A stretch of 64,000 bases of DNA from Escherichia phage vB_EcoM_JNE01. Positions 49,923 to 64,000 of the stretch are shown here, piece after piece. Location of the stretch: sequence record OR670491; one strand, given 5' to 3'. The notes beneath the pieces were generated by a model. It worked only from the letters and a program-made list of their open reading frames with translations. It did not search any database and was not told the origin of the DNA. The translations under genes and the position numbers were made by a program. Each line of letters begins with the position of its first letter. Positions within the stretch are counted from its first letter, which is position 1.

Positions 49923-49930
49923 GGAATACT

Positions 49931-50122: not shown

Positions 50123-50126
50123 AACT

Positions 50127-50306: not shown

Positions 50307-50315
50307 GGAACACTA

Positions 50316-51168: not shown

Positions 51169-51181
51169 AAAGGAATAACAA

Positions 51182-51388: not shown

Positions 51389-51391
51389 ATT

Positions 51392-51583: not shown

Positions 51584-51586
51584 ATC

Positions 51587-51766: not shown

Positions 51767-51769
51767 ATT

Positions 51770-51952: not shown

Positions 51953-51955
51953 AGC

Positions 51956-52141: not shown

Positions 52142-52161
52142 AGTACTAAAGGAATAAACAT

Positions 52162-52356
52162 ATGCAACACCAGCACAAATTGTACTACACGCAATTTCTT
52201 AATCAGCAACTACAACAATTTATACCTAATGAACCATTACCATATGATCATCCCCTGGGTGCACGCGTTTTCAAAAGAACTATTAATGAACTATTGAGTA
52301 CTACCGACGACGATTCCCTGTACTACTGCTTAATTAAACTTATATATAGGCACTAA
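52162..52356 (+). CDS. small-ORF array member 13
   Basis: MQHQHKLYYTQFL ... LIKLIYRH. Confidence 0.45.
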   Translation: MQHQHKLYYTQFLNQQLQQFIPNEPLPYDHPLGARVFKRTINELLSTTDDDSLYYCLIKLIYRH

Positions 52357-52357
52357 T

Positions 52358-52552
52358 ATGCAACTCCTGCACAGAGAATACTACACACAATTCCTTAAAG
52401 AGAACTACAGAGATTCAGTCCCCGTAACTCCTTTTGACCCAAATAACCCAAGTTCAATCTTCCTCTTTAACGACGCAACACGTACTGCACTCTGTACTAC
52501 CAATAAACATTGGCACTACGCATTTGTACTTATACTTATATACAGACACTAA
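52358..52552 (+). CDS. small-ORF array member 14
   Basis: MQLLHREYYTQFL ... LILIYRH. Confidence 0.45.
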   Translation: MQLLHREYYTQFLKENYRDSVPVTPFDPNNPSSIFLFNDATRTALCTTNKHWHYAFVLILIYRH

Positions 52553-52561
52553 GGCACTAAC

Positions 52562-52747
52562 ATGAATGAGCACAGAGAGTACTACATAAAGAGACTTCAC
52601 CCCGACCTACGAGATACTATACCATTCGTTCCACATAATATACATGAACCCGTAGTGCAGTACTACTTTAATATAACAGTACAAGCCGCATTAAGTGAAT
52701 ATAGACTTGAGTACTTCACTGTACTAAAACTTATATATAAGTACTAA
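52562..52747 (+). CDS. small-ORF array member 15
   Basis: MNEHREYYIKRLHP ... LKLIYKY. Confidence 0.45.
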   Translation: MNEHREYYIKRLHPDLRDTIPFVPHNIHEPVVQYYFNITVQAALSEYRLEYFTVLKLIYKY

Positions 52748-52812
52748 CCCCTTGACATATACTCCAAGAATGATATACTACTTTCTATATAGAAACAATA
52801 CAGAGATAACAT

Positions 52813-53022
52813 ATGCACGAACATAAAGATTTCTATGTAAGCCAACTCCCCGTAATAGACCAATTCTGGTTAGCTGATGCAGCACCGTGTAATACAGATA
52901 CTAAGTACGGACAATTGTGCTTTGTTGAATCTATAAAGAAAGTACTACAACAAGATAAAACTAAGTACCGTAAAGAAAAAGACTTGTACTTTAATATAGT
53001 AGAACTTACCTTTATGTTCTAG
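52813..53022 (+). CDS. small-ORF array member 16
   Basis: MHEHKDFYVSQLP ... VELTFMF. Confidence 0.45.
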   Translation: MHEHKDFYVSQLPVIDQFWLADAAPCNTDTKYGQLCFVESIKKVLQQDKTKYRKEKDLYFNIVELTFMF

Positions 53023-53343
53023 TATAGAGAATAGTACAGGATACTAAGGTCTAGATGTGTTCCTAGGGAAGCATTATAACAGGCTTTAACATCTCGTAAA
53101 GATGTTAAAATTCAGCCTGCTCGACGTCTGAATTGTTAAAATTCAGCCTGGACAAATGCGATCACTAGGATTCTATCTAGGCTGAATCCCGTAATCACAA
53201 GTACGCATATGTAATCATATATAAACATTTCCGTGAGAAGTTTTGAGTACTGTATAGTATTAAGAATCACCGTAGGAGCACAGAATGATTAAGAATGCAC
53301 GGGAATGATTCAGAATGATTCAGTACTGATATGTCACTAAGTA

Positions 53344-53369
53344 GGCAGAGGAAGTCTGCCGTACTTTTT
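53344..53369 (+). terminator. rho-independent terminator (approximate coordinates)
   Basis: GGCAGA-ggaag-TCTGCC followed by GTACTTTTT. Confidence 0.45.
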
Positions 53370-53707
53370 AGTTTCCAAGCTCCTTTTCCATTTTTCAAAT
53401 TACATCAAATGCAATCAAAAGTAATCACGCAATGATTAGTACTGAATTATTACTTTCACCTTAATTTCAAATACCCGTTGACCCTTCGGGGTAAAATTCC
53501 ATTACCCCTTGAGGCTCCAGCAAAAAGTTGGTTAGTACTCCATCCTAAATCTCGATCCTAAAAATTTTGGAGTACCTATGAAATAAAAGTTGGATCTTCG
53601 AAAGTTGAAATTTACGTTGGGATGATTAGGATTTGTGAACTATAATGTAGTTCAAGTTGGAGTACAGAGTGAGAACAATCTAGAGTACTGAAAGATGAAA
53701 TAACATC

Positions 53708-53735
53708 TTGACAATACAATTCAGTACTGTATAAT
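53708..53735 (+). promoter_or_regulatory. orphan sigma70-type promoter in non-coding region
   Basis: TTGACA, 16-nt spacer ending cagtactg, TATAAT; no ORF within 1.3 kb downstream. Confidence 0.45.
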
Positions 53736-54202
53736 GTTGTACATAGGGTGAGGGAACGGCGGCAACTGTTCCTTAATCTCAGTATCATGTCGTGAGACAT
53801 TACGCAAGTTATATCCTCCTGTGCATAGTGCTGGTGGTTATCTCTTGAACCTCATTTTTTCTCGTGAACTAAACAGTACTGATATTAACAGAATGGTAGC
53901 AGTACTGATATTAATCTAATGCATTATGCCACCAGCTTGTGCTGGTGGATTCCCTCTAACAGTATTCAGTACTACATGATGGTCTTCATCCTCCTGGGGT
54001 AACATAGTGAAGGTTATGATGGCAGTACTGAATACTCCAAACTCAAGATGGATTAAGGGTGTAGTACTGACGGATTTTGGGTGTAGTTACCCTGGATGGA
54101 TTTTGGACGTAGATATGTCTAGCCCTCCAGAAGTCTGGAAGTAAAGATGGCTATCCATCTAGACGGCTAAACGGCTAGATTTCTGGATGGCTGGACGTTT
54201 GG

Positions 54203-54234
54203 ACGGCTAAACGGCTAAACGGCTAAACGGCTAA
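54203..54234. repeat. iteron-like tandem repeat (ACGGCTAA x4)
   Basis: Four perfect 8-bp units with degenerate copies and GGATGG/GGACG motifs on both sides. Confidence 0.6.
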
Positions 54235-54878
54235 ACGTCTGGATGTATGGATGGCTAAATCAAAATTTTATTTTGTTTTTTCCAATAGTTCCCCTACCGC
54301 GTGGGGATAGTTTCCCCGCAGTATCTGGTGTTAGATTTTTCTGAATCTGGAATCATTATCTTATAAACTGGGGGCAATGTCAACGGCCTGGACGGATATT
54401 TTTAAAAATTTTTTCAGTACTGAATTTTGGGCGTAACTATGCACCCGGTGGGCTTGAGTCTTTCTCGACTTGATGGAACTATTATACAGTACTGAAAAAA
54501 TAAAGCAATACCCTGGAAGCAAAAAAGTTTTAATTAATTTGCTTGCTATCCTGGGCCGGACTATGGTACTATATTTCAGTACTGAGAAAGTGCGTTTACC
54601 TGCTAGGGTGCGGGAGTGTATCCTTTTTTTATATCTTGAATTTTGGACGGATCTTCCCACCCCCTGGGGTATCCGCTTTCTCGCGTCTATGTAGTAATTA
54701 TACGCTTTTTCAGGATCAAGTCAATACCTAAAAACAAAATAATTGAAAATAATTTAACGCGTTTAAACGGCCCGTAACGCCCTGGAATGATTAGAATGGT
54801 GCAAATGTATAGCTTAGGTGTATTAATGCGTTAGAATGCGTCTGAGGCCGTTTTATGGGGTGTAGTAGTGATTTGGTT

Positions 54879-55046
54879 GATTCAGTACTGAATAATAGTA
54901 CTCCTATATAGAAAGATAGTTCCCCTGGATTGATTCAGTACTGAATGATAGTACTGAATAATAGTACTCCTATATAGAAAGATAGTTCCCCTGGATTGAT
55001 TCAGTACTGAATGATAGTACTGAATAATAGTTCCCCTATATAGAAA
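54879..55046. repeat. tandem direct repeats (unit 53-66 bp, about 2.5 copies)
   Basis: Unit GATTCAGTACTGAATGATAGTACTGAATAATAGTACTCCTATATAGAAAGATAGTTCCCCTGGATT, each copy carrying 2-3 AGTACT palindromes. Confidence 0.65.
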
Positions 55047-55079
55047 GAAAACTATTTTAAAAGTATTTGTAGAAAGTAC

Positions 55080-55139
55080 TTGCACAGTACTGATAAAAGC
55101 GTATAATGTTTTACATCGAGAGCGGGAACTCTTCCCGCT
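55080..55139 (+). promoter_or_regulatory. promoter / 5' stem-loop cassette
   Basis: TTGCAC, 16-nt spacer, TATAAT (55102-55107), gttttacatc, hairpin AGCGGGAA-ctc-TTCCCGCT (55121-55139). Confidence 0.6.
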
Positions 55140-55162
55140 ACACTTTAAGAGAGATTAATACG

Positions 55163-55525
55163 ATGGCGACTCAAATCACTAAAATCATTGCTAACCTGGT
55201 TAACTTCCGCGACGATATGAAAGATCTTCCGGCGGCAACGGTTAAAACTCACATTGACGCATACCGCGAACTGATTAAAATGCTGCCGCTTAAGCGTGAA
55301 CAATACGCCGCCACCGTGATGCTTGATGCGATGATCCATAAGATGATCGCCAGTGATTTAACGATGGCTTATCAGTATATGGGTGAATTGTTCGCGGTGT
55401 ATAGTAAACCAGTACCAGGAATGGAAAGTACAGAAGTATTACACGGTTTAAATTTAAAACAAGATGCATGGGATAATATGCCTCGTTTCCTGGTATGGGC
55501 TGACAGTGGCAAAATTTACGAATAA
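55163..55525 (+). CDS. hypothetical protein
   Basis: Internal ATG (frame +57) of track ORF 55106, downstream of the cassette hairpin. Confidence 0.5.
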   Translation: MATQITKIIANLVNFRDDMKDLPAATVKTHIDAYRELIKMLPLKREQYAATVMLDAMIHKMIASDLTMAYQYMGELFAVYSKPVPGMESTEVLHGLNLKQDAWDNMPRFLVWADSGKIYE

Positions 55526-55538
55526 GTTAAAAATTAGT

Positions 55539-55597
55539 TTGACAGTACTGAATAAAAGCGTATAATGTTTTACATCAGGTGGGGAATAGTTCCCCAC
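55539..55597 (+). promoter_or_regulatory. promoter / 5' stem-loop cassette
   Basis: TTGACA-N16-TATAAT; hairpin GTGGGGAA-tag-TTCCCCAC. Confidence 0.6.
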
Positions 55598-55617
55598 TAT
55601 ATAAGAGGATTAAAAAA

Positions 55618-55857
55618 ATGGCTAAATCAAAAATGTTCTTAGGTCACAAAAATAAAACTCATTGGAATGTAAGCCTTTGGATTAATAACGATGAGGGATT
55701 GTATCGGTTGGCCCAGGACTTTATTAACGATAGCACTAATCGCAATGATGCGGCCCGTCATATGATGTTATTTTTAGAACAGACTGGACAAGATAAAACA
55801 CCGGACGGATTCAAATATAGCACTACTGCGATCCGTGCGGCAATGGTAGGAATGTAA
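55618..55857 (+). CDS. hypothetical protein (paralog of 57659..57898)
   Basis: 79 aa; shared GHKNKTHWNVSLWINN ... TPDGFKYSTTAIRAAMVGM. Confidence 0.5.
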   Translation: MAKSKMFLGHKNKTHWNVSLWINNDEGLYRLAQDFINDSTNRNDAARHMMLFLEQTGQDKTPDGFKYSTTAIRAAMVGM

Positions 55858-55943
55858 TAGAATATATTTAAAGTACTATCATTTTTTTGCGATAGTACTT
55901 TATAATAGTGTTTTATTCATACACCAACGATAAGGGCAACAGC

Positions 55944-56210
55944 ATGAATATTAAGTATTTTGCGACGCGTGAACAAGCTCGGATCGCCGCTCGCCAGGAC
56001 GGGGCAACGTTTAAAGATATGGGCGTACAATCGGAACGTGGTAAACGTTGGGCCATTGTAAAGCGTAGTACCGCCAGATCATTACAGTACTGGTTAGCGG
56101 CCTTAAAAAGTCCCGATAGTGTATCGCGTCGAGTGGTAGAAATAAAGCTCGACCGAAAGGGCAACCGCGTGACCGTGTACCGTACTAAAAAGATAGCAGT
56201 ACTTGAATAA
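55944..56210 (+). CDS. hypothetical basic protein
   Basis: Internal ATG (frame +36) of track ORF 55908. Confidence 0.45.
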   Translation: MNIKYFATREQARIAARQDGATFKDMGVQSERGKRWAIVKRSTARSLQYWLAALKSPDSVSRRVVEIKLDRKGNRVTVYRTKKIAVLE

Positions 56211-56217
56211 AAAGTAC

Positions 56218-56276
56218 TTGCAAACTATGTTTAATGGCGTATAATGTTTTACATCGAGAGCGGGAACTCTTCCCGC
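56218..56276 (+). promoter_or_regulatory. promoter / 5' stem-loop cassette
   Basis: TTGCAA-N16-TATAAT; hairpin GCGGGAA-ctc-TTCCCGC. Confidence 0.6.
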
Positions 56277-56297
56277 CTATAACCTGGAGTAATAAAA

Positions 56298-56528
56298 ATG
56301 ACTAATATGTATATGACTGAAGTTAAAACCGTAAAAGATACTACCACGAATAAAACTACTTACTTACAGCGGATCTGCGGTGTATGGCAACGTATCAGCA
56401 AATCAAAGTACTTTAAATTAACATCATATGCAAATCGTTCGGATTCATTCAGTACTGAAATAAAAGGTAATAAAGTACACCAATACGGCACTTATTATTA
56501 TTACAGCCTGGACGCGATTGCAGTATAA
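56298..56528 (+). CDS. hypothetical protein
   Basis: 76-aa ORF with GGAG RBS. Confidence 0.45.
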   Translation: MTNMYMTEVKTVKDTTTNKTTYLQRICGVWQRISKSKYFKLTSYANRSDSFSTEIKGNKVHQYGTYYYYSLDAIAV

Positions 56529-56778
56529 GCAGTTTACAAATCTTTACAATTGCCGGTATTGACTTATTTTGTCAGTACTGGCATAATGTATTCATTGGCA
56601 GATAAGCCGTAGCCCATAGGGTGCGGGAGTGTATCTATAGAAAAATTAGTTTAGTATAGTTACAATTGTGCACCCGGTGGGTTAGCTGTTGTCATGGGGT
56701 ATATTATGCCAGTACTTGATAATTCTGTCAATACTTTTTTTTTACTATTCAGTACTGAAAACTATTTTTAAAAAGTAC

Positions 56779-56896
56779 TTGCAAACTATGTTTAAAGGCG
56801 TATAATGTTTTACATCAGGACGGGGAACGAAATAAGTAACTTCCCGTTAAGTAGCCCAGGAGTAAGGCACACGAAAAACTCCCCTGATAAAATAGT
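56779..56896 (+). promoter_or_regulatory. orphan promoter with ~90-nt structured leader (candidate small RNA)
   Basis: TTGCAA-N16-TATAAT (to 56806), then tacatcaggacggggaac...acgaaaaactcccctga with no ORF; a second promoter follows. Confidence 0.45.
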
Positions 56897-56924
56897 TTGA
56901 CAAATGTTTTTAAAAGCGTATAAT
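56897..56924 (+). promoter_or_regulatory. sigma70-type promoter
   Basis: TTGACA-N16-TATAAT, 32 nt upstream of the 56957 ATG. Confidence 0.55.
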
Positions 56925-56956
56925 ACTTACATCAACTACTGAATGAGGGTTACAAA

Positions 56957-57568
56957 ATGAAAACTATCACTACTACTACTTTCGTTATGGATTTTTCTGA
57001 ATTGAACGCAGAACAACAAACGTCAGCTATCGAACTGGTTCGGGATCGTGAGCGTTCATGTGAGGATAATTTCTTTGCTGAGGGCGTTATCGAGTACTAT
57101 AAAGAAACAGTACTACCAGAATACGGCATAGATGAAGCTGAATTGCAATACAGTGGTTTTTGGTCGCAAGGTGACGGTGCATCAATCAGTACTGACAGCG
57201 TGGACGCAGTGAAGTTTTTACGCAAGATTAAAGCGTTAACGAAATATCGTTCTATCCGTCACTTGTTGAATGAAGATGATTTGGCAATGAGTGTAGAACG
57301 TTCACACTCTCGCTACGCACACGAAAACACGGTAAGCGGGTACATTGAATCGGCTTACACTGATTTAACCGCAAAACAAGAAACGTTAGTTAATGAGCTT
57401 GAGGAACTACTCACTGATACTATTCGTGAATTGTCCCGCAAGTTGTACCGTGATTTAGAGAATGCATATGAGGATCAATTCACTACTGAAAACATTACGG
57501 CACTGATTGAGGGTAACGAATATCAATTCAATGTTATTGATGGCGTAGTGGAATCAATCGAATATTAA
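56957..57568 (+). CDS. hypothetical acidic protein
   Basis: 203-aa ORF with GAGGGT RBS. Confidence 0.5.
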   Translation: MKTITTTTFVMDFSELNAEQQTSAIELVRDRERSCEDNFFAEGVIEYYKETVLPEYGIDEAELQYSGFWSQGDGASISTDSVDAVKFLRKIKALTKYRSIRHLLNEDDLAMSVERSHSRYAHENTVSGYIESAYTDLTAKQETLVNELEELLTDTIRELSRKLYRDLENAYEDQFTTENITALIEGNEYQFNVIDGVVESIEY

Positions 57569-57580
57569 TTTAAAAAGTAC

Positions 57581-57640
57581 TTGCAAACTAAGTTTAAAAG
57601 CGTATAATACTTTATATCGAGGCGGGGAGTGGTTCCCCGC
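57581..57640 (+). promoter_or_regulatory. promoter / 5' stem-loop cassette
   Basis: TTGCAA-N16-TATAAT; hairpin GCGGGGA-gtggt-TCCCCGC. Confidence 0.6.
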
Positions 57641-57658
57641 TCAAACGAGGATTTAAAA

Positions 57659-57898
57659 ATGGCTAGTACTAAAACTTACAACGGACACAAAAACAAAACT
57701 CATTGGAATGTAAGCCTTTGGATTAATAACGGTGAGTCATTGTATCGGCTTGCTCAAAGTTGCATCGCACAAAGTAGAACTAAAGATATTGCTGCGGAAT
57801 GTATGTACCGCAGATTAAAAGCCAACGGTACTACTACAACGCCGGACGGCTTTAAGTATAGCACTACTGCGATCCGTGCTGCAATGGTTGGAATGTAA
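57659..57898 (+). CDS. hypothetical protein (paralog of 55618..55857)
   Basis: 79 aa sharing the GHKNKTHWNVSLWINN motif. Confidence 0.5.
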   Translation: MASTKTYNGHKNKTHWNVSLWINNGESLYRLAQSCIAQSRTKDIAAECMYRRLKANGTTTTPDGFKYSTTAIRAAMVGM

Positions 57899-57955
57899 TA
57901 TTCAGTACTGAGATAATGGCGGGTAATAGTTCCCGCCTTTACTGAGGGTTATCTA

Positions 57956-58216
57956 ATGAGTAAAGTAATTAGCTATACAGCACTAAGCAAGACATTATCT
58001 ATTAGCCAGTGCACCGATGGTTATTGGCTATTTGATGAAACGCGTGGCATGAATTTAGCGATGCGTGCAAAAACTGCTGAGGCGGCGTATATTCAAGCAC
58101 TGGAATACTACCAGGAACGTTTAAAGGAAGTAGAAGAAGATTATAAAAGCCTCAAAGCGAAAGTAGATCATTTCGTCGGTCAATTCAACGAGGAAGACGA
58201 CGACAAACAATATTGA
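57956..58216 (+). CDS. hypothetical protein
   Basis: 86-aa ORF preceded by hairpin GGCGGG...CCCGCC and GAGGGT. Confidence 0.45.
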   Translation: MSKVISYTALSKTLSISQCTDGYWLFDETRGMNLAMRAKTAEAAYIQALEYYQERLKEVEEDYKSLKAKVDHFVGQFNEEDDDKQY

Positions 58217-58224
58217 AAAAGTAC

Positions 58225-58283
58225 TTGCAATTAGTTTTCAGTACTGTATAATGGTTTACATCAAAGGGAGAAATGGTTCTCCC
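58225..58283 (+). promoter_or_regulatory. promoter / 5' stem-loop cassette
   Basis: TTGCAA-N16-TATAAT; hairpin GGGAGAA-atgg-TTCTCCC. Confidence 0.6.
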
Positions 58284-58302
58284 TGGTAATGAGGAAAATA
58301 AA

Positions 58303-58524
58303 ATGGCTAATATCACTACTCTTTCCCAACTGGAAGCACTGGTGAAATCTATGCGGGAACATGCCGACAAAATCGGCGTACAAGATCCAGCCGTTTGCTT
58401 CTGCGACGAATTGAATGATGATACCCTGGTAATAGCAGAAGTCCAGGACGTTTCTAACTATTCCTCGCGTTACACTGGCGGCGTAGCAAATAAAGGCGAC
58501 TTCTGTTTATACCTTACAAAATAA
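58303..58524 (+). CDS. hypothetical protein
   Basis: Internal ATG (frame +30) of track ORF 58273. Confidence 0.45.
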   Translation: MANITTLSQLEALVKSMREHADKIGVQDPAVCFCDELNDDTLVIAEVQDVSNYSSRYTGGVANKGDFCLYLTK

Positions 58525-58529
58525 CAACG

Positions 58530-58559
58530 CGGGGAGATAATAACTCCCCGTTACTTTTT
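58530..58559 (+). terminator. rho-independent terminator
   Basis: CGGGGAG-ataataa-CTCCCCG followed by TTACTTTTT. Confidence 0.6.
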
Positions 58560-58692
58560 CAGTACTGAATCATTTAATAGACGGATCTCGGCACCCGGTG
58601 GGTTAGTGACTGTTTCGTCTTGATGTAGTAATTATGCCAGTACTGGATGCACTTGTCAACAACTATTTTTCAAATACTTTTTATTAAAATAC

Positions 58693-58740
58693 TTGCAATT
58701 AGTTTTTAAACGCGTATAATGTTTTGCATAGGGGGAGCGG
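58693..58740 (+). promoter_or_regulatory. promoter / 5' stem-loop cassette
   Basis: TTGCAA-N16-TATAAT; short hairpin GGGGA-gcggt-TCCCC. Confidence 0.55.
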
Positions 58741-58767
58741 TTCCCCTGGTAACTAAGGAATAATAAA

Positions 58768-59004
58768 ATGCTTGAACAAATCAAATCAACGTCTGCGAAT
58801 GTAACGGGAACGGTATCACACTTTACTAGTGATGAATCGCGTGGTGTTCCTTATTGTGCTGTACATGTAAACACTGATGGCAACTACTGGTTTACGGTTT
58901 ACGGATCATATTCATTTGGACGGCCAGGGCATCAAAAAATTCTGGATAAAGTACAACCAACGGGTAAAAATATCACTGCCGAAATGTTTTATAAAAAATC
59001 ATAA
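58768..59004 (+). CDS. hypothetical protein
   Basis: 78-aa ORF. Confidence 0.45.
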   Translation: MLEQIKSTSANVTGTVSHFTSDESRGVPYCAVHVNTDGNYWFTVYGSYSFGRPGHQKILDKVQPTGKNITAEMFYKKS

Positions 59005-59009
59005 AGTAC

Positions 59010-59069
59010 TTGCAATTAGTTTTTAGTACTGTATAATATTTTACATCGCAAGGGGAAACGGTTTCCCCT
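59010..59069 (+). promoter_or_regulatory. promoter / 5' stem-loop cassette
   Basis: TTGCAA-N16-TATAAT; hairpin AGGGGAAA-cgg-TTTCCCCT. Confidence 0.6.
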
Positions 59070-59088
59070 GGTAACTAAGGATAATCAA

Positions 59089-59388
59089 ATGAAAGTTGCA
59101 ATCATCGCCCTGGCTTTATCTGTATCGTCTTTCGCTGTTAACGCTTCCGTTGATGTACCGCGTGAAAAATTCATTCAGTGCACTGTTGCAATGACTAACG
59201 AGGAAACGGCTGAGATTGTTACCAAATCCCTGGAACTGGCCCCTGCAATGTTTGCTAATGGCCCGTACCATGAAGAAGATGATCAGGGTAGCACGACCAT
59301 CTATTACGATGCAAAAAGTAAACGCGGTTCAGTTACTGTAATGGATACTGAGAAAGTTACATTCACGGGAGTAATTAATTGTTTTTAA
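59089..59388 (+). CDS. hypothetical secreted protein
   Basis: Signal-peptide-like MKVAIIALALSVSSFAVNA. Confidence 0.5.
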   Translation: MKVAIIALALSVSSFAVNASVDVPREKFIQCTVAMTNEETAEIVTKSLELAPAMFANGPYHEEDDQGSTTIYYDAKSKRGSVTVMDTEKVTFTGVINCF

Positions 59389-59405
59389 TGAAGTACTGAA
59401 TCATA

Positions 59406-59433
59406 AGCCCACTATAAGAAGTGGGCTTTTTTT
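59406..59433 (+). terminator. rho-independent terminator
   Basis: AGCCCAC-tataagaa-GTGGGCT + T7. Confidence 0.6.
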
Positions 59434-59475
59434 ATTGTAGTACTGAATACTTTAAAAATAGTTTTGAAATAGTAG

Positions 59476-59618
59476 TTGACATTACCAGGGAAAGGCGTAG
59501 AATGTATTACATCAGGACGGGGAACACTAAGTAGACCGCCAGTAAGTCGAACGAAAAACTGGACACGACCTGGAAACTTTGATAAACTAACTTACACTTT
59601 AATTGAGGAATTAAAAAA
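59476..59618 (+). promoter_or_regulatory. promoter with long structured leader (second copy of the 56807 leader motif)
   Basis: TTGACA-N16-TAGAAT, then tacatcaggacggggaac ... cgaacgaaaaactgg, 115-nt leader before ATG. Confidence 0.45.
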
Positions 59619-60098
59619 ATGGCAAATGTAAAATCATTCTTTAAAGCACTGGTATCTTCTGACGTATCTATCGCCGCTGAATTGCTGGCTGACCTGGATA
59701 ATGATACCATGAAAGCAGTACGCAATAATTTTAATATGGCGTACAGTGCAGCAAAAGAACTGCAAGCCAAAAAGGTAGCAGAACTGGAAGCGGCAAAGGC
59801 AGAACGTGAAGCAGAACTGCAAGCAACAATCGAAAGCATCCAGGCGGCGGTAAGTGGATTGGATATCGAGATCGTAACCGATATGGCACATAAAGCCCTA
59901 GCTGCAAAATACGGTGAAGTAAAAGCGGTTAAAGAAAAGAAATGGATTCAGGACCGCGTTAACGTAGTACTTGACAACGGGGAAGAATATCTTATTCCTG
60001 TACGCGGTAACTGCATTGCCGTAGTACTGGACGCGATTAACTCCAGTGGTATGACACGCGAGGAATGGATCGAAGCTCATCGCAAAGTTGAAGCATAA
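59619..60098 (+). CDS. hypothetical protein
   Basis: 159-aa ORF, Ala/Glu/Lys-rich central segment. Confidence 0.5.
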   Translation: MANVKSFFKALVSSDVSIAAELLADLDNDTMKAVRNNFNMAYSAAKELQAKKVAELEAAKAEREAELQATIESIQAAVSGLDIEIVTDMAHKALAAKYGEVKAVKEKKWIQDRVNVVLDNGEEYLIPVRGNCIAVVLDAINSSGMTREEWIEAHRKVEA

Positions 60099-60119
60099 CA
60101 ATAAAAGTACTGAATCACT

Positions 60120-60146
60120 AGCCCACCTTAAACGGTGGGCTTTTTT
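60120..60146 (+). terminator. rho-independent terminator
   Basis: AGCCCACC-ttaaac-GGTGGGCT + T6. Confidence 0.6.
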
Positions 60147-60300
60147 GTGTTTATCGTTTACCAGGCCACCAGCACCGCCTAGAAACGATTCTAACGCATT
60201 AAACTGATTATCTGATGCATTGCCCTAGCTGGTGGCGTTAAGGCTGTAAGAACGCGATTGAGAGCGTTTAAAGTATTTTGCAAAAAGTAATAAAAAGTAC

Positions 60301-60328
60301 TTGCACGATTAAGAGATTAGCGTATAAT
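60301..60328 (+). promoter_or_regulatory. sigma70-type promoter
   Basis: TTGCAC-N16-TATAAT with A-rich upstream tract. Confidence 0.5.
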
Positions 60329-60373
60329 TAATTACATCAAGGCAAGACACCTTAACTAACTGAGGATATAAAG

Positions 60374-60526
60374 ATGAATACTTATGACCTGGATTGTTTT
60401 ACTTTACAAGTAATGTCAGTATGCAGTAAGAAAGATTGGTCATCAAAGGAATTTAAAGCAGTTATCGCGTGTGCAAAACACGGCAAGACTATCAATGAAA
60501 CGGCATCAATCATTGATAAACTTTAA
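60374..60526 (+). CDS. hypothetical 50-aa protein
   Basis: MNTYDLDCFTLQVMSVCSKKDW... after GAGGA; not in track. Confidence 0.35.
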   Translation: MNTYDLDCFTLQVMSVCSKKDWSSKEFKAVIACAKHGKTINETASIIDKL

Positions 60527-60534
60527 AAAATAGT

Positions 60535-60563
60535 TTGACAATAGTTTTAAGTACTGGCATAAT
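60535..60563 (+). promoter_or_regulatory. sigma70-type promoter (class B, CATAAT -10)
   Basis: TTGACA, 17-nt spacer ending agtactgg, CATAAT. Confidence 0.5.
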
Positions 60564-60595
60564 ACATACATCAACTACTGAATAGGAATTAAAAA

Positions 60596-60823
60596 ATGGC
60601 TATTATCATTACTCGCGTATCTGGTACTACTGGCAACGAACAAGTAGTTGCAGTCATTACCAACAAGGAAGGTGCGGAATTGCAAAATGCAATGAATACC
60701 TGGGCCGTTAATGAGTTCGGTCAGTGGGCAAGTGTAGCATACATTGAAACCTATCAAGTGCCGTCGATTAGTTTAACTGATTTGGGCGTTGAGCGTATCC
60801 TTTGCCTGGATGAATTAAATTAA
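60596..60823 (+). CDS. hypothetical protein
   Basis: 75-aa ORF. Confidence 0.45.
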   Translation: MAIIITRVSGTTGNEQVVAVITNKEGAELQNAMNTWAVNEFGQWASVAYIETYQVPSISLTDLGVERILCLDELN

Positions 60824-60831
60824 AAAAGTAC

Positions 60832-60891
60832 TTGCAAAGTAAATCGAATAAAGTATAATACATTACATCAAGGGGAGAAATGGTTCTCCCC
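60832..60891 (+). promoter_or_regulatory. promoter / 5' stem-loop cassette
   Basis: TTGCAA-N16-TATAAT; hairpin GGGGAGAA-atgg-TTCTCCCC. Confidence 0.6.
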
Positions 60892-60908
60892 ACTACAAGG
60901 AAACTAAA

Positions 60909-61052
60909 ATGAAAACTTGTCAATGTGGTCATAAATCTATTACGGGTTTTAAGCGGGGCGTTGCTCTTTGCCAGTACCATTATAATTTACAAGTATGGGG
61001 TAAAGAATGGGCCGACCAGGTGGAAGCAGCAAAGAAAGCAAAAAGTAAGTAA
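60909..61052 (+). CDS. hypothetical 47-aa Cys-rich protein
   Basis: MKTCQCGHKSITGFKRGVALCQYHY...; not in track. Confidence 0.35.
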   Translation: MKTCQCGHKSITGFKRGVALCQYHYNLQVWGKEWADQVEAAKKAKSK

Positions 61053-61070
61053 AATATTATCACAGTACTA

Positions 61071-61099
61071 TTGACATAGTTTGATAGTACTGGCATAAT
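61071..61099 (+). promoter_or_regulatory. sigma70-type promoter (class B)
   Basis: TTGACA-N17-CATAAT. Confidence 0.5.
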
Positions 61100-61140
61100 A
61101 GATTTTATCAAGACAACATATTAATTTAAGGAATACAAAA

Positions 61141-61464
61141 ATGGCTAAAACTATCATTAACACCGTTTCCCTGGCTGCAATCCGTGCAATCAATGTTGAC
61201 GGTAAACGTTGGACTGATACATATGGCAATACTTATCATTCTTGTCATGTAAGCGTTGAACTGGATAACGGTTTGAATGATCTGGCGGTTGAATCATTTA
61301 CTTATGGCTATGAAGATGCATATCAACAAACGGCGTTAGATCTATTAAAGGAATCAGTAGACGGGCTTAATACTGATGAAACCTCCCTTACTCGTTTGTG
61401 CAATGATCTTAATATCCCGTTGCATTGTACTGTACAGAATGTTAAACGCAAAAAAGATCTTTAA
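61141..61464 (+). CDS. hypothetical protein
   Basis: 107-aa ORF, AAGGAA RBS. Confidence 0.5.
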   Translation: MAKTIINTVSLAAIRAINVDGKRWTDTYGNTYHSCHVSVELDNGLNDLAVESFTYGYEDAYQQTALDLLKESVDGLNTDETSLTRLCNDLNIPLHCTVQNVKRKKDL

Positions 61465-61544
61465 TTAGCTTTACTTTATGCAGATACTTTGATATAGTGT
61501 CTGCATAGGGGAAAGAAATTAAATTAACTTAAGAGGATCGTATA

Positions 61545-61814
61545 ATGAAAAATATCAGTACTTTAATCGATACAGGTACTCATGTTCGTCGGTCTATGGT
61601 TGCAACCAGTACTACAAAACAAGTACCAAGCGGTTATCTTGTATTTGTGCACGATGGTAAACTCCTGGAACGTTCAATCAATTTTGATGTTAAAAACAAT
61701 TGCCGTTTTATTATCTTTAAGCGTGAGCAATATAAAATTGATTTACCAGCAAAGCCCATAAGCGGGGCGTACAACGTGCAATCATTGTTTGAACGTCAAC
61801 CATACACCTATTAA
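61545..61814 (+). CDS. hypothetical protein
   Basis: 89-aa ORF, AGAGGA RBS; near-palindrome ATGCAGATACT...AGTGTCTGCAT upstream. Confidence 0.45.
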   Translation: MKNISTLIDTGTHVRRSMVATSTTKQVPSGYLVFVHDGKLLERSINFDVKNNCRFIIFKREQYKIDLPAKPISGAYNVQSLFERQPYTY

Positions 61815-61865
61815 TCAAAACATCGTTAGCGGTCGATTTAGGCCGCGTATATTGGGGATTATACC

Positions 61866-62138
61866 ATGAACGTTAATCAAGTACTGAATGAGATCGAAAG
61901 CATCATTAAACCAATGAAACGCATTGATGCTATGTTAACACCGGAAGAATGCCGCCTTTATGAGCGTTACAGCGTCGAACAAGTCCAGGCAATGGCTATG
62001 GCTACCCCAGCCGTTAAACCGCCTGAGAATGCGTTACAGGACGTTACAGGGGATTATATCATCAATCCAGTACTAGGGAAGATGGCTGCAATCACCGAAG
62101 ATCAACAAGATTACTTAAGTCAGTACTTAAAAGGTTAA
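61866..62138 (+). CDS. hypothetical protein
   Basis: 90-aa ORF. Confidence 0.45.
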   Translation: MNVNQVLNEIESIIKPMKRIDAMLTPEECRLYERYSVEQVQAMAMATPAVKPPENALQDVTGDYIINPVLGKMAAITEDQQDYLSQYLKG

Positions 62139-62143
62139 TTAAT

Positions 62144-62353
62144 ATGCTTACTGTACAGGATAAGATCGACATCTTAAAGGTTAATATGTATGTGATTGAT
62201 GCAGTACCTGGTAAAGTATTTGCATACGATGACAGTACTGTAAGCGATTTCTACTATAGCCAGGACGTGGGGGATCTTTCTGTACAGTCGGTTATTGAAA
62301 ACGTAGTTAATGCAGCGTATGAGCATTTACTTTCAAATAGTACTTGCAATTAG
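62144..62353 (+). CDS. hypothetical protein
   Basis: 69-aa ORF; its last codons and stop lie inside the downstream promoter -35 (AGTACTTGCAATTAG). Confidence 0.45.
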   Translation: MLTVQDKIDILKVNMYVIDAVPGKVFAYDDSTVSDFYYSQDVGDLSVQSVIENVVNAAYEHLLSNSTCN

Positions 62354-62403
62354 TTTTTAAACGCGTATAATGTTTTACATGAAGGGGAGAAATGATTCTC
62401 CCC
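62344..62403 (+). promoter_or_regulatory. promoter / 5' stem-loop cassette
   Basis: TTGCAA-N16-TATAAT; hairpin GGGGAGAA-atga-TTCTCCCC. Confidence 0.6.
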
Positions 62404-62422
62404 ACTAATTAAGGAATATGAA

Positions 62423-62569
62423 ATGAAAGCATCAAAAAAGAGTAATACTAAGAAAGCACGTTCAACCTTAGATGGGGTATTCCCTTTACGTTTCGTTGAT
62501 GAAGTGGTGTCCTACCCGCCGGGCCTTACTCCTGAGATGGTAGAAAGTTTGCGTAAATCTAAAAAATAG
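62423..62569 (+). CDS. hypothetical 48-aa basic protein
   Basis: MKASKKSNTKKARSTLDGVFPLRF...; not in track. Confidence 0.35.
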   Translation: MKASKKSNTKKARSTLDGVFPLRFVDEVVSYPPGLTPEMVESLRKSKK

Positions 62570-62572
62570 TAC

Positions 62573-62632
62573 TTGCAATTAGTTTTTAGTACTGTATAAT
62601 AGTTTACATGAAGGGGAGAAATGATTCTCCCC
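62573..62632 (+). promoter_or_regulatory. promoter / 5' stem-loop cassette
   Basis: TTGCAA-N16-TATAAT; hairpin GGGGAGAA-atga-TTCTCCCC. Confidence 0.6.
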
Positions 62633-62650
62633 AATAACAGGAGAATCAAA

Positions 62651-62803
62651 ATGAAACAATACAACGCTCGGTTTGATGTTACTATCGGTAACGGCAAAGG
62701 TCAATTCTCTTTCAGTACTCGCAAAAGTTATACAGAAAACTTCCTGCGTAATTGTGCACTGACCGCCGCTCAAATTAAACATTACTTTCAGGCTAAAAAA
62801 TGA
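62651..62803 (+). CDS. hypothetical 50-aa protein
   Basis: Internal ATG (frame +30) of track ORF 62621, after AGGAG. Confidence 0.4.
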   Translation: MKQYNARFDVTIGNGKGQFSFSTRKSYTENFLRNCALTAAQIKHYFQAKK

Positions 62804-62889
62804 AAACATTAGCTTACTATAGTTCGGCCCTGGTCGGTGCATTGATCGCGGCGTTGTTAGTAACCTATCTATTCTTTATGGTGATTTAA
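62800..62889 (+). CDS. possible 29-aa hydrophobic micro-protein
   Basis: MKTLAYYSSALVGALIAALLVTYLFFMVI; ATGA overlap with the upstream stop. Confidence 0.25.
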   Translation: MKTLAYYSSALVGALIAALLVTYLFFMVI

Positions 62890-63033
62890 ATGAATCCAAC
62901 AGGTTTAAACTATAAAAGTTGTTCGGCGTTTACGAAAGCAAATAAAGCGAATGCACGTAAAGCGAAAGTACAAGAATACATCAAGCAAGGCATGACGCGA
63001 AAGGCGGCGATTCTAAAAGCTAAAAATAAATGA
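62890..63033 (+). CDS. hypothetical 47-aa basic protein
   Basis: MNPTGLNYKSCSAFTKANKANARKAKVQEY...; start directly after the upstream stop. Confidence 0.3.
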   Translation: MNPTGLNYKSCSAFTKANKANARKAKVQEYIKQGMTRKAAILKAKNK

Positions 63034-63040
63034 AAAAAGT

Positions 63041-63071
63041 GGTTGACTCCGGTCAGCCATTTTGCTATTAT
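63041..63071 (+). terminator. composite terminator-promoter element
   Basis: GGTTGAC-TCCG-GTCAGCC-ATTTTGC-TATTAT. Confidence 0.5.
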
Positions 63072-63175
63072 ATATTCATTGAGAGATAGCTCACTAGCCC
63101 ACAGGGTGCATAAGTGTATCTATTATATGAGTATTGAGTACTGAAAACTATTTTAAAAGTATTTGTAGAAAGTAC

Positions 63176-63234
63176 TTGCAAACTATCTCAATAAGCGTAT
63201 AATGTTTTACATCGAAAGGGGAAACGGTTTCCCC
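63176..63234 (+). promoter_or_regulatory. promoter / 5' stem-loop cassette
   Basis: TTGCAA-N16-TATAAT (63198-63203); hairpin GGGGAAAC / GTTTCCCC (63218-63234). Confidence 0.6.
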
Positions 63235-63254
63235 TGATAATAAGGAAACAAATC

Positions 63255-63596
63255 ATGACTATCTCAATTGCTCAATCTAACTTTGAAAACGAAATCATCG
63301 CCCAGGCACTGCGTTTAAATGATGGTCGGGCCGAAATTAATTACGGTTTCAATTCAGGCGGTTGTGAAAAATATCAGTACTTTGTAACGGCTGATGGCGG
63401 TGTCCTGGGTATCAATACAGTTATTGTAAACATCCAAAAAATTAATTTCAATGATCCAGACGATAGCCAGTTTTACATCACTGGCGTAGACGTGAACTAT
63501 GAGGATGACTCACTAACTGATGATCACACTGGTGAGAAGTTAGAGAGTGCATACGGTGAAGATGATTATCAGTCAGTACCGGAAGATTTTGAATAA
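63255..63596 (+). CDS. hypothetical acidic protein
   Basis: 113-aa ORF, AAGGAAA RBS. Confidence 0.5.
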   Translation: MTISIAQSNFENEIIAQALRLNDGRAEINYGFNSGGCEKYQYFVTADGGVLGINTVIVNIQKINFNDPDDSQFYITGVDVNYEDDSLTDDHTGEKLESAYGEDDYQSVPEDFE

Positions 63597-63611
63597 TATT
63601 AAAAAAATAGT

Positions 63612-63671
63612 TTGACAATAGATTATAGTACTGTATAATAGTTTACATCAAGGGGAGAAAAACTTCTCCCC
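63612..63671 (+). promoter_or_regulatory. promoter / 5' stem-loop cassette
   Basis: TTGACA-N16-TATAAT; hairpin GGGGAGAA-aaac-TTCTCCCC. Confidence 0.6.
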
Positions 63672-63693
63672 ACTAACAGAGAGAGAAAACAAA

Positions 63694-63906
63694 ATGGCTA
63701 ATATCTGCACTGTACTGAAAAATGCAAAACAAGTTTTATTTTCTGATCACGATCATTTAAACAAGGATATTACTGGCGTTCGGAATATCAAAGATGTAAA
63801 AAGTGTTATGGGTATCTATTGCAATATGAAACGTGTTGGAACGTTCGGCGACAAAGTACTATACCAGGCAGGGGATTACAATTTTACACTGACTATCATT
63901 AACTAA
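63694..63906 (+). CDS. hypothetical protein
   Basis: 70-aa ORF. Confidence 0.45.
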   Translation: MANICTVLKNAKQVLFSDHDHLNKDITGVRNIKDVKSVMGIYCNMKRVGTFGDKVLYQAGDYNFTLTIIN

Positions 63907-63934
63907 AAATATATTACCAGTACTATTAAATCTA

Positions 63935-63963
63935 TTGACAACGTTTGATAGTACTGACATAAT
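63935..63963 (+). promoter_or_regulatory. sigma70-type promoter (class B); gene continues beyond window
   Basis: TTGACA-N17-CATAAT, then acatcaactacactactaaggaattaaaaaat at the window edge. Confidence 0.45.
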
Positions 63964-64000
63964 AACTTTTATCAACTACACTACTAAGGAATTAAAAAAT

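What the first reader, a model, noticed from the sequence alone, without database searches (positions are those of the whole stretch)
54441..63119. Recurrent ~70-bp non-coding element GCACCCGGTGGGTTAG... with inverted partner CCCA(T/C)AGGGTGC
Copies of TGCACCCGGTGGG(T/C)T..G...TATTATGCCAGTACT occur near 54441, 56680 and 58592. An inverted-orientation partner (TAGCCCA[TC]AGGGTGC[AG]...GTGTATC) occurs near 54605, 56615 and 63094, sometimes paired about 40 bp apart. All copies are intergenic, and several adjacent terminators share the AGCCCAC/GTGGGCT stem. These may be small structured RNAs, MITE-like elements or protein-binding sites.
Basis: seen in the sequence. Interest (0 to 1): 0.5.

Follow-up and report, generated by a model that had tools for sequence, protein, structure and literature searches.

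The report
Repeated small-RNA genes in jumbo-phage terminus
The repeated motif is real: it marks about seven copies of a tiny unit, made of a strong bacterial-type promoter followed by a short structured non-coding RNA, found only in the terminal repeat of Rak2-like giant phages, undescribed so far and of unknown function.

Summary
The "element" and its "inverted partner" are one oriented unit seen on opposite strands. Each unit has a near-consensus sigma-70 promoter, a start near CAT, a short hairpin H1, a 3-5 nt linker, the invariant R-CCC-ANN-GGGUGC (hairpin H2), a purine-rich 6-mer and a pyrimidine-rich tail.

A covariance model finds seven copies in the window, all within 54425-63125. Four are on the minus strand and three on the plus strand. 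None lie in the other 54 kb. A complete related genome has nine copies, all inside 19 kb of 352 kb, matching the annotated direct terminal repeat of a sister phage.

The family occurs in 63 phage records. All those listed are ~310-390-kb Rak2-like jumbo phages of seven host genera, apart from one 52-kb Klebsiella record. No match was found in 5,426 E. coli genomes by BLAST, in Rfam, or in the searchable literature.

H1 shows compensatory changes at every pair. The CCC/GGG core never varies. No reading frame is conserved.

About a third of copies sit in convergent pairs with fixed gaps of 13, 24 or 31 nt. About 40% of copies point against the neighbouring genes.

Best reading: stand-alone immediate-early small RNA genes, probably with a protein-binding handle. 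The function is inferred, not shown.

The parts
56559..56640 (+). Unit A: promoter TTGACT-17-CATAAT with TG (56559-56587), then the RNA module (H1 GGC/GCC with loop AGAUAA; core 56613-56624 CCCAUAGGGUGC; tail GUAUCU). It faces unit D.
   Evidence: Promoter 10/12 with TG. Model hit 42.6 bits, E 6e-9. Aligned.
56654..56731 (-). Unit D, 'short' class without a full H1: promoter TTGACA-17-CATAAT with TG (56731-56703); core 56681-56670; tail GUAACU. It is convergent with A, with 13 nt between model ends.
   Evidence: Promoter 11/12. Model hit 27.4 bits, E 8e-5. The A/D arms are inverted repeats, 35 nt at 71% and 35 nt at 77% complementarity. Read-through folds into a hairpin of -42.7 kcal/mol, z -5.1.
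63036..63125 (+). Unit B: a terminator-like hairpin (63036-63063) whose stem contains the -35 box; promoter TTGACT-17-TATTAT (63043-63071); RNA module 63075-63125 (H1 GAG/CUC; core 63098-63109). The next early promoter starts about 50 nt downstream (63176-63203).
   Evidence: (41.4 bits, E 1e-8).
58575..58659 (-). Unit C: promoter TTGACA-17-CATAAT with TG (58659-58631); H1 GAC/GUC; core 58602-58591; tail CCGUCU. It points against the flanking genes and runs into the bidirectional terminator 58529-58551.
   Evidence: 34.7 bits, E 9e-7. The 96 nt are 100% identical in 11 related genomes and at least 90% identical in most.
54641..54724 (-). Unit E, a variant core: promoter TTGACT-16-TATAAT (54724-54697); H1 CGC/GCG with loop GAGAAA; core CCCAGGGGGUGG (54668-54657). 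It is convergent with G.
   Evidence: Promoter 11/12. Model hit 19.0 bits, E 0.015. Orthologues in UE-S1 and vB_Ec-M-J read CCCAGAGGGUGC.
54574..54631 (+). Unit G, a degenerate copy: weak promoter (TTGCTT-17-TATGGT at 54539-54567, read directly from the sequence), CCU-GCUA-GGGUGC, and the alternative hairpin GGGUGC/GUAUCC followed by seven T, which makes it terminator-like.
   Evidence: Model hit 14.9 bits, E 0.19. Terminator-like site 54605-54624 plus a T run.
54425..54508 (-). Unit F: -10 TATAAT preceded by TG (54486-54481) and a weak -35 TTGCTT (54508-54503), both read directly from the sequence; H1 AGUC/GACU with loop GAGAAA; core 54452-54441; tail ACGCCC, which pairs strongly with GGGUG. 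It points towards the genome end.
   Evidence: Model hit 27.6 bits, E 7e-5. RNAfold picks GGGUG:CGCCC.

Best explanation
These are stand-alone genes for small non-coding RNAs, present in about 10 copies per terminal repeat of Rak2-like jumbo phages.

Shown: each unit carries its own near-consensus sigma-70 promoter, so it needs only host RNA polymerase. In annotated relatives all copies lie in the direct terminal repeat. Whether this end of the DNA enters the cell first is an inference by analogy with T5, not a result.

Shown: the transcribed part begins with a short hairpin H1 whose stem differs between copies but always pairs. Next come a 3-5 nt linker and the invariant R-CCC-ANN-GGGUGC, which can form a 4-bp hairpin H2 with a 3-4 nt loop. 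Then come six purine-rich bases and a tail N-Y-R-Y-C-Y. The tail is always complementary to GGGUG, giving an alternative hairpin H3 of about equal stability to H2.

Inferred: the RNA acts in trans. H1 serves as a 5' stabilising clamp, and the invariant hairpin is a sequence-specific handle for a protein. The high gene dosage suggests a stoichiometric job, such as titrating a host or phage RNA-binding factor.

Inferred: 3' ends are set in three ways, by collision with or read-through into a convergent partner, by a neighbouring bidirectional terminator, or by H3 plus a U-rich run.
For: Recurrence beyond chance: 7 motif matches against 0.70 expected; model hits with E down to 6e-9.

Promoter linkage: 73 of 76 copies have a promoter match of at least 9/12, and 63 of 76 at least 10/12, against 5% of random windows. 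The -10 box ends at a fixed 19-21 or 24-28 nt before the core.

RNA structure: all H1 pairs show changes on both sides, 105 cells in all, against 36 in shuffles. RNAalifold recovers H1 and H2 unaided on 16 ungapped natural copies, with 4 of 4 H1 pairs compensated and none broken. Stems of at least 4 Watson-Crick pairs occur in 27 of 60 copies, against 6.7 expected and a maximum of 14. The H2 loop varies in sequence and length (ACA, ACC, AUA, AUU, AGA, UCAA, GCUA) while CCC and GGG stay fixed.

Not coding: the distance from promoter to core takes values that are not multiples of three, and no common start codon is visible in the sequences.

Not cis-regulatory in general. In the window 4 of 7 copies point against the genes. 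In RaK2 it is 2 of 8 and in Hallingskeid 4 of 11. Antisense copies such as C are followed by a terminator and no ORF.

Conservation and confinement: 63 phage records, from seven host genera. There are 84 model hits at E below 0.05 in about 1 Mb of fetched loci, all but four weak ones in Rak2-like jumbo-phage loci. A whole 352-kb genome has 9 hits, all within 18.8 kb. In vB_Ec-M-J, 10 hits lie inside the annotated terminal repeat.
Against: No expression data exist, so transcript ends and abundance are inferred.

Folding energies of single copies are not unusual (z -0.05 to -1.9).

H2 and the GGGUGC side of H3 never vary, so neither helix can be proven by covariation. H3 shows one-sided changes only.

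No binding partner is known. Invariance of a 12-mer at a fixed distance from a promoter could also reflect a DNA-level or RNA-polymerase-level role.

About a third of copies are followed by another promoter with no terminator. Those transcripts could simply be long leaders of the next gene.
Confidence: 0.55

Rival explanations
1. Cis-acting transcription control module. The nascent H1 and H2 act on the transcribing polymerase, as a put- or nut-like antiterminator would. Alternatively the H2/H3 pair works as a small attenuator that decides whether polymerase reads on into downstream early genes.
For: The module lies immediately after the start site. H2 and H3 are mutually exclusive and nearly isoenergetic: mean -3.8 against -3.4 kcal/mol, with H3 more stable in 39 of 70 copies. 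The tail is 95% compatible with GGGUG in register, against 31-70% when slid. Of 73 copies, 20 have a T-rich run right after H3. Copy G is a textbook terminator-like site. Co-directional copies sit between a terminator and the next gene.
Against: Four of the 7 window copies, 2 of 8 in RaK2 and 4 of 11 in Hallingskeid point against every neighbouring gene or face another unit, so they have nothing to regulate in cis. Most copies lack a U tract. BoxA-like sequences occur only at chance level and none is next to a unit. BLAST shows no sequence similarity to any phage outside the Rak2-like group.
Confidence: 0.2
2. DNA-level element. It could be a PeSL-type promoter/terminator cassette serving as recombination homology for module shuffling. 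It could also be a binding site, single or palindromic in the convergent pairs, for a phage or host DNA-binding protein.
For: Co-directional copies have a G/C stem-loop terminator fused to a consensus promoter, as PeSLs do (PMC2839356, PMC4122927). A neighbouring gene shared with rV5-like phages ends exactly at unit A's promoter. Convergent pairs form roughly 100-bp imperfect palindromes with quantised spacing. The core CCC-NNN-GGG is a dyad.
Against: Compensatory changes in H1 and the strand-specific GGGUGC and tail make sense for RNA, not duplex DNA. The unit promoter does not drive an ORF directly. The one locus tested (A/D) shows no insertion/deletion polymorphism among 34 genomes.
Confidence: 0.15
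3. Miniature transposable element (MITE/REP-like) that has spread through the region.
For: Multiple dispersed copies lie in both orientations in intergenic DNA. CAGTACTG palindromes flank some copies.
Against: The unit has no unit-specific terminal inverted repeats and no target-site duplications were seen by eye. The CAGTACTG motif is common throughout the region's promoters. Copies are syntenic and stable across genomes. They are confined to 5% of the genome.
Confidence: 0.04
4. Chance similarity or ordinary terminators.
For: Two real terminators nearby share AGCCCAC stems.
Against: Statistics. The motif is conserved across phages of seven host genera.
Confidence: 0.01

Closest known systems
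PeSLs (promoter-early stem-loop cassettes) of T4-type phages (Arbiol et al. 2010, PMC2839356; Comeau et al. 2014, PMC4122927)
   Same: Both are repeated intergenic cassettes in regions full of tiny orphan genes. Both have a near-consensus sigma-70 promoter with an adjacent G/C-rich stem-loop terminator. In co-directional units the terminator stem even contains the -35 box.
   Different: PeSLs drive the next ORF and have no conserved transcribed module. Here the promoter is followed by a conserved, structured, non-coding 50-nt module. Often a second promoter comes before the gene. Antisense and convergent copies have no PeSL-type terminator upstream. No shuffling was seen at the one locus tested.
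Promoter-proximal antitermination RNAs: lambda nut (boxA + boxB) and HK022 put (from my own knowledge of these systems)
   Same: Both have two short hairpins in the first 40-50 nt of an early transcript made by host polymerase. H1 loops are purine-rich (GAGAAA, GCGAAA, AGAACAA) like boxB loops. The H2 stem GCCC/GGG resembles the lambda boxB stem GCCCU/AGGGC.
   Different: There is no boxA. The H2 loop is 3-4 nt, not a GNRA-like pentaloop. A large minority of copies point against the genes. There are about 10 copies rather than 2. BLAST shows no sequence similarity.
Abundant viral decoy RNAs: adenovirus VA RNA, phage RNA anti-CRISPRs (solitary repeat units), pseudo-ToxI of phage PhiTE (from my own knowledge)
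   Same: These are small structured viral RNAs with their own promoters, made early and in quantity. They act by occupying a host protein.
   Different: The unit shows no similarity to E. coli type I-E or I-F CRISPR repeats or to ToxI (compared by eye). It does not occur as a tandem array. No target protein is known. The decoy role here is only an inference from copy number and the invariant hairpin.
Intrinsic (Rho-independent) terminators
   Same: Copy G, and about a quarter of copies elsewhere, have the H3 hairpin followed by a T-rich run.
   Different: Most copies have a weak, G.U-rich 5-6 bp H3 and no U tract. Ordinary terminators do not keep an invariant 12-mer at a fixed distance from a promoter.

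Membership tests
PeSL cassette | Near-consensus sigma-70 early promoter | tested here: met
   Matches of 9-12 out of 12 in 73 of 76 copies.
PeSL cassette | Adjacent stem-loop that terminates upstream transcription | tested here: inconclusive
   Present and overlapping the -35 box in co-directional copies (B at 63036-63063; L124 copies). Absent upstream of antisense copies C, D, E and F.
PeSL cassette | Promoter directly serves the flanking orphan ORF | tested here: not met
   The promoter is followed by the non-coding module. After that comes another promoter (25 of 74), a convergent unit (26 of 74) or a terminator (9 of 74).
PeSL cassette | Marks insertion/deletion boundaries between close relatives | tested here: inconclusive
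   The A/D locus is intact in 34 genomes. However, a gene shared with rV5-like phages ends at unit A's promoter. Only one locus was tested.
MITE / REP-like mobile element | Terminal inverted repeats and target-site duplication; filled and empty sites | tested here: not met
   Single units have no unit-specific terminal inverted repeats. The inverted repeats found at C and F are generic CAGTACTG palindromes. No empty site among 34 genomes at the one locus tested.
lambda-type nut site | boxA (YGCUCUUWA) next to a boxB hairpin with a GNRA-like pentaloop, upstream of terminators in the same operon | tested here: not met
   BoxA-like matches are at chance level (50 against 49.5 expected) and none is in a unit. 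The H2 loop is 3-4 nt. In the window 4 of 7 copies are antisense to the genes.
HK022 put RNA | Two stem-loops just downstream of an early promoter that act in cis to make polymerase terminator-resistant | not testable with these tools
   The architecture is superficially similar. BLAST with a unit finds only Rak2-like phage records. Orientation argues against this role for many copies. The function itself needs experiments.
Any Rfam 15 family | Score at or above the family gathering threshold | tested here: not met
   No hits in the window at gathering thresholds. Only three chance-level hits, none on a unit, at E up to 10.
tRNA / tmRNA | Cloverleaf detected by ARAGORN | tested here: not met
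   No genes found in the window.
Type III antitoxin (ToxI-like) or CRISPR-repeat mimic | Tandem direct repeats of the RNA unit, or similarity to host CRISPR repeats | tested here: not met
   Copies are dispersed, each with its own promoter. Tandem repeat arrays in the region do not involve the unit. No resemblance to E. coli I-E or I-F repeats by inspection.
Intrinsic terminator | G+C-rich hairpin immediately followed by a U tract | tested here: inconclusive
   Met by copy G and approximately by 20 of 73 copies. Not met by A, B, C, D, E or F.

The most novel reading that the evidence does not exclude
The units are an RNA-based immediate-early countermeasure. About twenty gene copies per virion genome would flood the cell with a small RNA. 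Its invariant CCC-ANN-GGGUGC hairpin would trap a host RNA-binding defence or decay factor, much as VA RNA does for adenovirus. The near-isoenergetic H2/H3 alternative and the fixed-gap convergent pairs could add a switch or a double-stranded RNA output. This would be a new class of phage anti-host RNA.
Probability: 0.2. Interest if true: 0.8.

Novelty: new variant of a known kind. Interest (0 to 1): 0.58.

Why it matters
Rak2-like jumbo phages are candidates for phage therapy. Most of their genes have no known function (83% in phAPEC6), and their terminal repeats are treated as strings of tiny orphan genes. This work shows that the repeat also carries a conserved multi-copy family of promoter-driven structured RNAs, which no annotation, Rfam family or searchable paper records.

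If the RNAs are made as predicted, they would be among the first products of infection. They would be a tractable entry point for RNA-based host takeover or anti-defence in giant phages. At the least, the family gives annotators a model for labelling these intergenic regions. It also extends the PeSL promoter/terminator cassette idea to cassettes whose cargo is an RNA rather than an ORF.

Tried and rejected
(1) A pseudoknot between the H1 loop or 5' end and the tail looked good in a few copies (AGAUA:UAUCU, UAGACA:UGUCUA). It does not beat mismatched partners: mean longest run 4.04 against 3.86, permutation p 0.06. Dropped.

(2) tRNA-like, ribozyme or riboswitch identity. There are no ARAGORN or Rfam hits. 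By eye there is no hammerhead, pistol or preQ1 signature.

(3) Small ORF. There is no common start codon, and indels break the frame.

(4) CsrA or Shine-Dalgarno mimic in the 6-nt spacer. By eye, roughly half of the copies carry GGA there, judging from the column counts.

(5) Seed for base-pairing to a target. The two central core positions vary freely, as expected for a loop and not a seed.

(6) Host counterpart. BLAST of a consensus unit against 5,426 E. coli genomes found nothing. A 13-nt core alone would be invisible to BLAST, so this is weak evidence.

(7) The covariance-model alignment A4 mis-aligns H1, because the seed used N padding. I therefore did not use it for H1 counts and used only its ungapped 3' half.

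(8) Literature searches for the motif strings and for transcriptomes of these phages found nothing relevant.

A 14-15-mer would return mostly chance hits.


Full report
WHAT THE WINDOW IS. Window 54300-58800 matches Asteriusvirus jumbo coliphages: UE-S1 at 96.3% over 100% of the query, and also Turkey3, BF17, PBECO4 and 121Q. In the sister phage vB_Ec-M-J the orthologous stretch lies inside the annotated 21,525-bp direct terminal repeat. Related records (Muenster, fENko-Kae01, CBB) also place their copies in terminal or redundant repeats. By offset from the first gene, the repeat should begin near window 53400. The last roughly 10.6 kb of the window would then be the start of the terminal repeat. 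This is a region of tiny plus-strand genes, each with its own promoter.

THE OBSERVATION. GCACCCGGTGGG is exact at 54441, 56670 and 58591. Its reverse complement occurs, with 1-2 changes, at 56613 and 63098. That makes 7 matches at up to 2 mismatches against 0.70 expected, and none of 100 shuffles reaches 7.

A sigma-70-type promoter comes first, then about 7 nt, then CAT and the conserved module. The simple promoter scan finds these promoters on its own: C 11/12 with TG, D 11/12 with TG, E 11/12, A 10/12 with TG, B 10/12 with TG.

A covariance model run over all 64 kb with filters off returns seven copies:
- A 56582-56640 (+), 42.6 bits
- B 63075-63125 (+), 41.4 bits
- C 58575-58627 (-), 34.7 bits
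- F 54425-54474 (-), 27.6 bits
- D 56654-56720 (-), 27.4 bits
- E 54641-54693 (-), 19.0 bits, E 0.015
- G 54574-54627 (+), 14.9 bits, E 0.19, degenerate

The next hit scores 12.5 bits. Nothing lies in window 1-54000.

ANATOMY. I collected copies from Klebsiella phage RaK2 (L002), Erwinia phage Hallingskeid (L003), vB_Ec-M-J (L124) and IMG/VR jumbo contigs including 121Q, GAP32, CBB and Serratia BF. From 71 distinct copies, the consensus downstream of H1 reads: U-A-R, CCC (71/71), A (70/71), Y, A, GGGUG (71/71), C (65/71), R-G-A-R-R-U, then N-Y-R-U-C-Y, then A-U-A.

Upstream lies hairpin H1. It has 3-5 bp and a purine-rich 6-9 nt loop (GAGAAA, GCGAAA, AGAUAA, AGAACAA, GUGUAA). Its stem differs from copy to copy: UGGC/GCCG, UGAG/CUCA, AGCA/UGCU, AGAC/GUCU, GGAG/CUCC, GGAA/UUCC, ACCG/CGGU, GCCA/UGGC, ACAAA/UUUGU, UCCUG/CAGGA. 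A "short" class, which includes window copy D, lacks the 5' strand of H1.

STRUCTURE EVIDENCE. I built a hand alignment of 52 copies, padded with N so that it stayed ungapped (A3). On it, every H1 pair shows changes on both sides: 105 cells against 36 in shuffles, and covariation score 0.55 against 0.14. That alignment was fitted to the hairpin, so I added two independent controls.
- A fixed hairpin finder gives stems of at least 4 Watson-Crick pairs in 27 of 60 real upstream segments. Shuffled segments give 6.7 on average, with a maximum of 14 in 200 shuffle sets.
- RNAalifold on 16 natural copies of identical geometry, with no padding, predicts H1 and H2 by itself. All four H1 pairs are compensated and none is broken.

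H2 (R-CCC/GGG-U) never varies except at its closing pair (G.U 28, A-U 21). It therefore cannot be proven by covariation. Its loop, however, changes in sequence and length while CCC and GGG stay put.

The tail is complementary to GGGUG in 95.4% of cells in register, against 31-70% in slid registers. All of its changes are one-sided, G.U to G-C or U-A to U.G.

H2 and H3 compete for GGG and are nearly isoenergetic. Their means are -3.8 and -3.4 kcal/mol, and H3 is the more stable in 39 of 70 copies.

A loop-to-tail pseudoknot that I first favoured is not supported (p 0.06). Single-copy folding energies are unremarkable.

THE PROMOTER IS PART OF THE UNIT. Of 76 copies, 73 have a match of at least 9/12 and 63 at least 10/12. 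Only 5% of random 85-nt windows from the same loci reach 10/12. The -10 box ends 19-21 nt (short class) or 24-28 nt before the core. A TG extended -10 is present in 44 of 73. Those distances are not multiples of three, and no common start codon exists, so the unit is not a small gene.

DISTRIBUTION. BLAST with a consensus unit finds 63 phage records. All those listed are ~310-390-kb Rak2-like jumbo phages, apart from one 52-kb Klebsiella record (phiKp_21). Their hosts are Escherichia, Klebsiella, Salmonella, Erwinia, Cronobacter, Pectobacterium and Serratia. It finds nothing in 5,426 complete E. coli genomes.

The model gives 84 hits with E below 0.05 in about 1 Mb of fetched loci. All but four weak ones are in jumbo-phage loci, even though the other loci were selected for carrying the exact 14-mer of the core.

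In the complete 351,992-bp genome of phage ECO103 4-12-1 there are nine hits. All fall between 302,365 and 321,165. Ten lie in the vB_Ec-M-J terminal repeat.

There is no Rfam family and no tRNA. None of the records whose annotation I read, or that were listed, labels a unit as an RNA; a few place a "hypothetical protein" CDS over one. I found no paper carrying the motif or describing such RNAs.

CONTEXT. Among 74 non-redundant copies, 26 sit in convergent pairs whose model ends are exactly 13, 24 or 31 nt apart. In the window A/D and G/E both have 13 nt. Another 25 are followed within 20-60 nt by another promoter, 9 by a terminator-like hairpin, and 14 by neither.

Co-directional copies such as B have a characteristic upstream end. 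It is a G/C stem-loop terminator whose stem contains the -35 box (for example GGGATTGACTCCGGTCAGTCCC TTTGCTATTAT). Antisense copies such as C run straight into the bidirectional terminator of the neighbouring gene.

In the window, four of seven copies point against the genes. In RaK2 it is two of eight, and in Hallingskeid four of eleven.

The two arms of a pair are different paralogues, so the pairs are not concerted palindromes. Even so, read-through across A/D would fold into a long hairpin (-42.7 kcal/mol, z -5.1).

The A/D locus is syntenic in 34 related genomes, and unit C is 90-100% identical in 36. Single units have no unit-specific terminal inverted repeats. The inverted repeats flanking C and F are the generic CAGTACTG palindromes of the region.

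WHAT IT MOST LIKELY IS. The fixed link to a promoter, the compensatory changes in H1 and the strand-specific invariant motif all point one way. So do the absence of a reading frame and the many copies with no gene downstream. Together they indicate stand-alone small-RNA genes transcribed by host polymerase from the terminal repeat.

What is shown: the recurrence, the promoters, H1, the invariance and the confinement.

What is inferred: that the RNAs accumulate and act in trans, and that the invariant hairpin is a protein handle. I also infer that about 10 copies per repeat (about 20 per virion genome, with the repeat at both ends) point to a stoichiometric, decoy-like role.

I put 0.55 on "independent structured small-RNA genes". 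I put only about 0.2 on the specific decoy mechanism.

RIVALS. A cis-acting antiterminator or attenuator fits the promoter-proximal position and the H2/H3 competition. It also fits copy G's clear terminator and the T-rich run after 20 of 73 copies. It fails on orientation, on the lack of U tracts in most copies and on the absence of boxA.

A DNA-level PeSL-like cassette (PMC2839356, PMC4122927) shares the promoter-plus-terminator design. It may well describe the evolutionary origin of the upstream half. It does not explain the conserved transcribed module or the H1 covariation.

The MITE and chance readings are effectively excluded.

NOVELTY. The unit is not a member of any family I could test. 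It works most like a PeSL cassette whose cargo is a small RNA instead of an ORF. I therefore rate it a new variant of a known kind, of moderate to high interest, because it is conserved across seven host genera and wholly unannotated.

Noticed in passing
window 53830, 53941, 60228 (+) and 53929, 60166 (-); L124, L002, L003, L131: Chi sites (GCTGGTGG) are more than tenfold enriched in the terminal-repeat region and lie almost all on the gene strand. Nine of the 16 minus-strand Chi sites in the complete ECO103 4-12-1 genome lie in 19 kb of 352 kb. There are 9 in the vB_Ec-M-J locus L124, 9 in the RaK2 locus and 11 in Hallingskeid. Some abut units. This may protect the linear ends from RecBCD.
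   Followed up: partly
window 56813-56890 and 59507-59590: A second candidate non-coding RNA. A consensus early promoter is followed by AUCAGGACGGGGAAC...AAAAACUCCCCUGAU with no ORF, and then by another consensus promoter. There are two paralogues in the window. The first stretch (window ~56794-56942) is 86% identical in the rV5-like phage muut.
   Followed up: no
window 55119-55140, 55578-55598, 56259-56278, 57620-57640, 58264-58285, 58729-58746, 59050-59069 and others: Nearly every early mRNA promoter (AAAGTACTTGCAA-N16-TATAAT-GTTTTACATC) is followed by a 5'-UTR hairpin of the form GGGGAA-nnnn-TTCCCC. The stems vary but always pair. It sits in a position analogous to H1.
   Followed up: no
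window 48000-64000; whole region: AGTACT, usually as CAGTACTG, is about 2.5 times denser in the terminal-repeat part than elsewhere. It overlaps promoter elements systematically: the -35 box of mRNA promoters (AGTACTTGCA) and the extended -10 of unit promoters (AGTACTGGCATAAT). It may be an operator for early-promoter shut-off.
   Followed up: partly
L003 19375-19400 and 19913-19945; L002 about 22820; L007/L103: In convergent pairs with 24- or 31-nt gaps in non-Asteriusvirus relatives, the gap holds a Fur-box-like palindrome (AATGAGAATGATAATCATT). It is absent from the window's 13-nt-gap pairs.
   Followed up: no
window 54159-54259 and 54884-55048: Two tandem arrays lie in the 2-kb non-coding stretch at the presumed start of the terminal repeat. 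One has ACGGCTAA 8-mers, in part at 100% identity. The other has 2.5 copies of a 66-bp unit rich in AGTACTGAAT, at 97% identity.
   Followed up: partly
window 54288-54316: AGTTCCCCTACCGCGTGGGGATAGTTTCC loosely resembles the E. coli type I-E CRISPR repeat GAGTTCCCCGCGCCAGCGGGGATAAACCG: same flanks and GGGG/CCCC stem, about 18 of 29 identical by eye. It could be chance, given how common GGGGAA/TTCCCC hairpins are here.
   Followed up: no
window 56272-56531 (gene 56298-56528): This small gene is about 92% identical in several rV5-like (Vequintavirinae) records and in records labelled 'Campylobacter phage'. The match stops exactly where unit A's promoter begins. This suggests module exchange bounded by the unit.
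   Followed up: no
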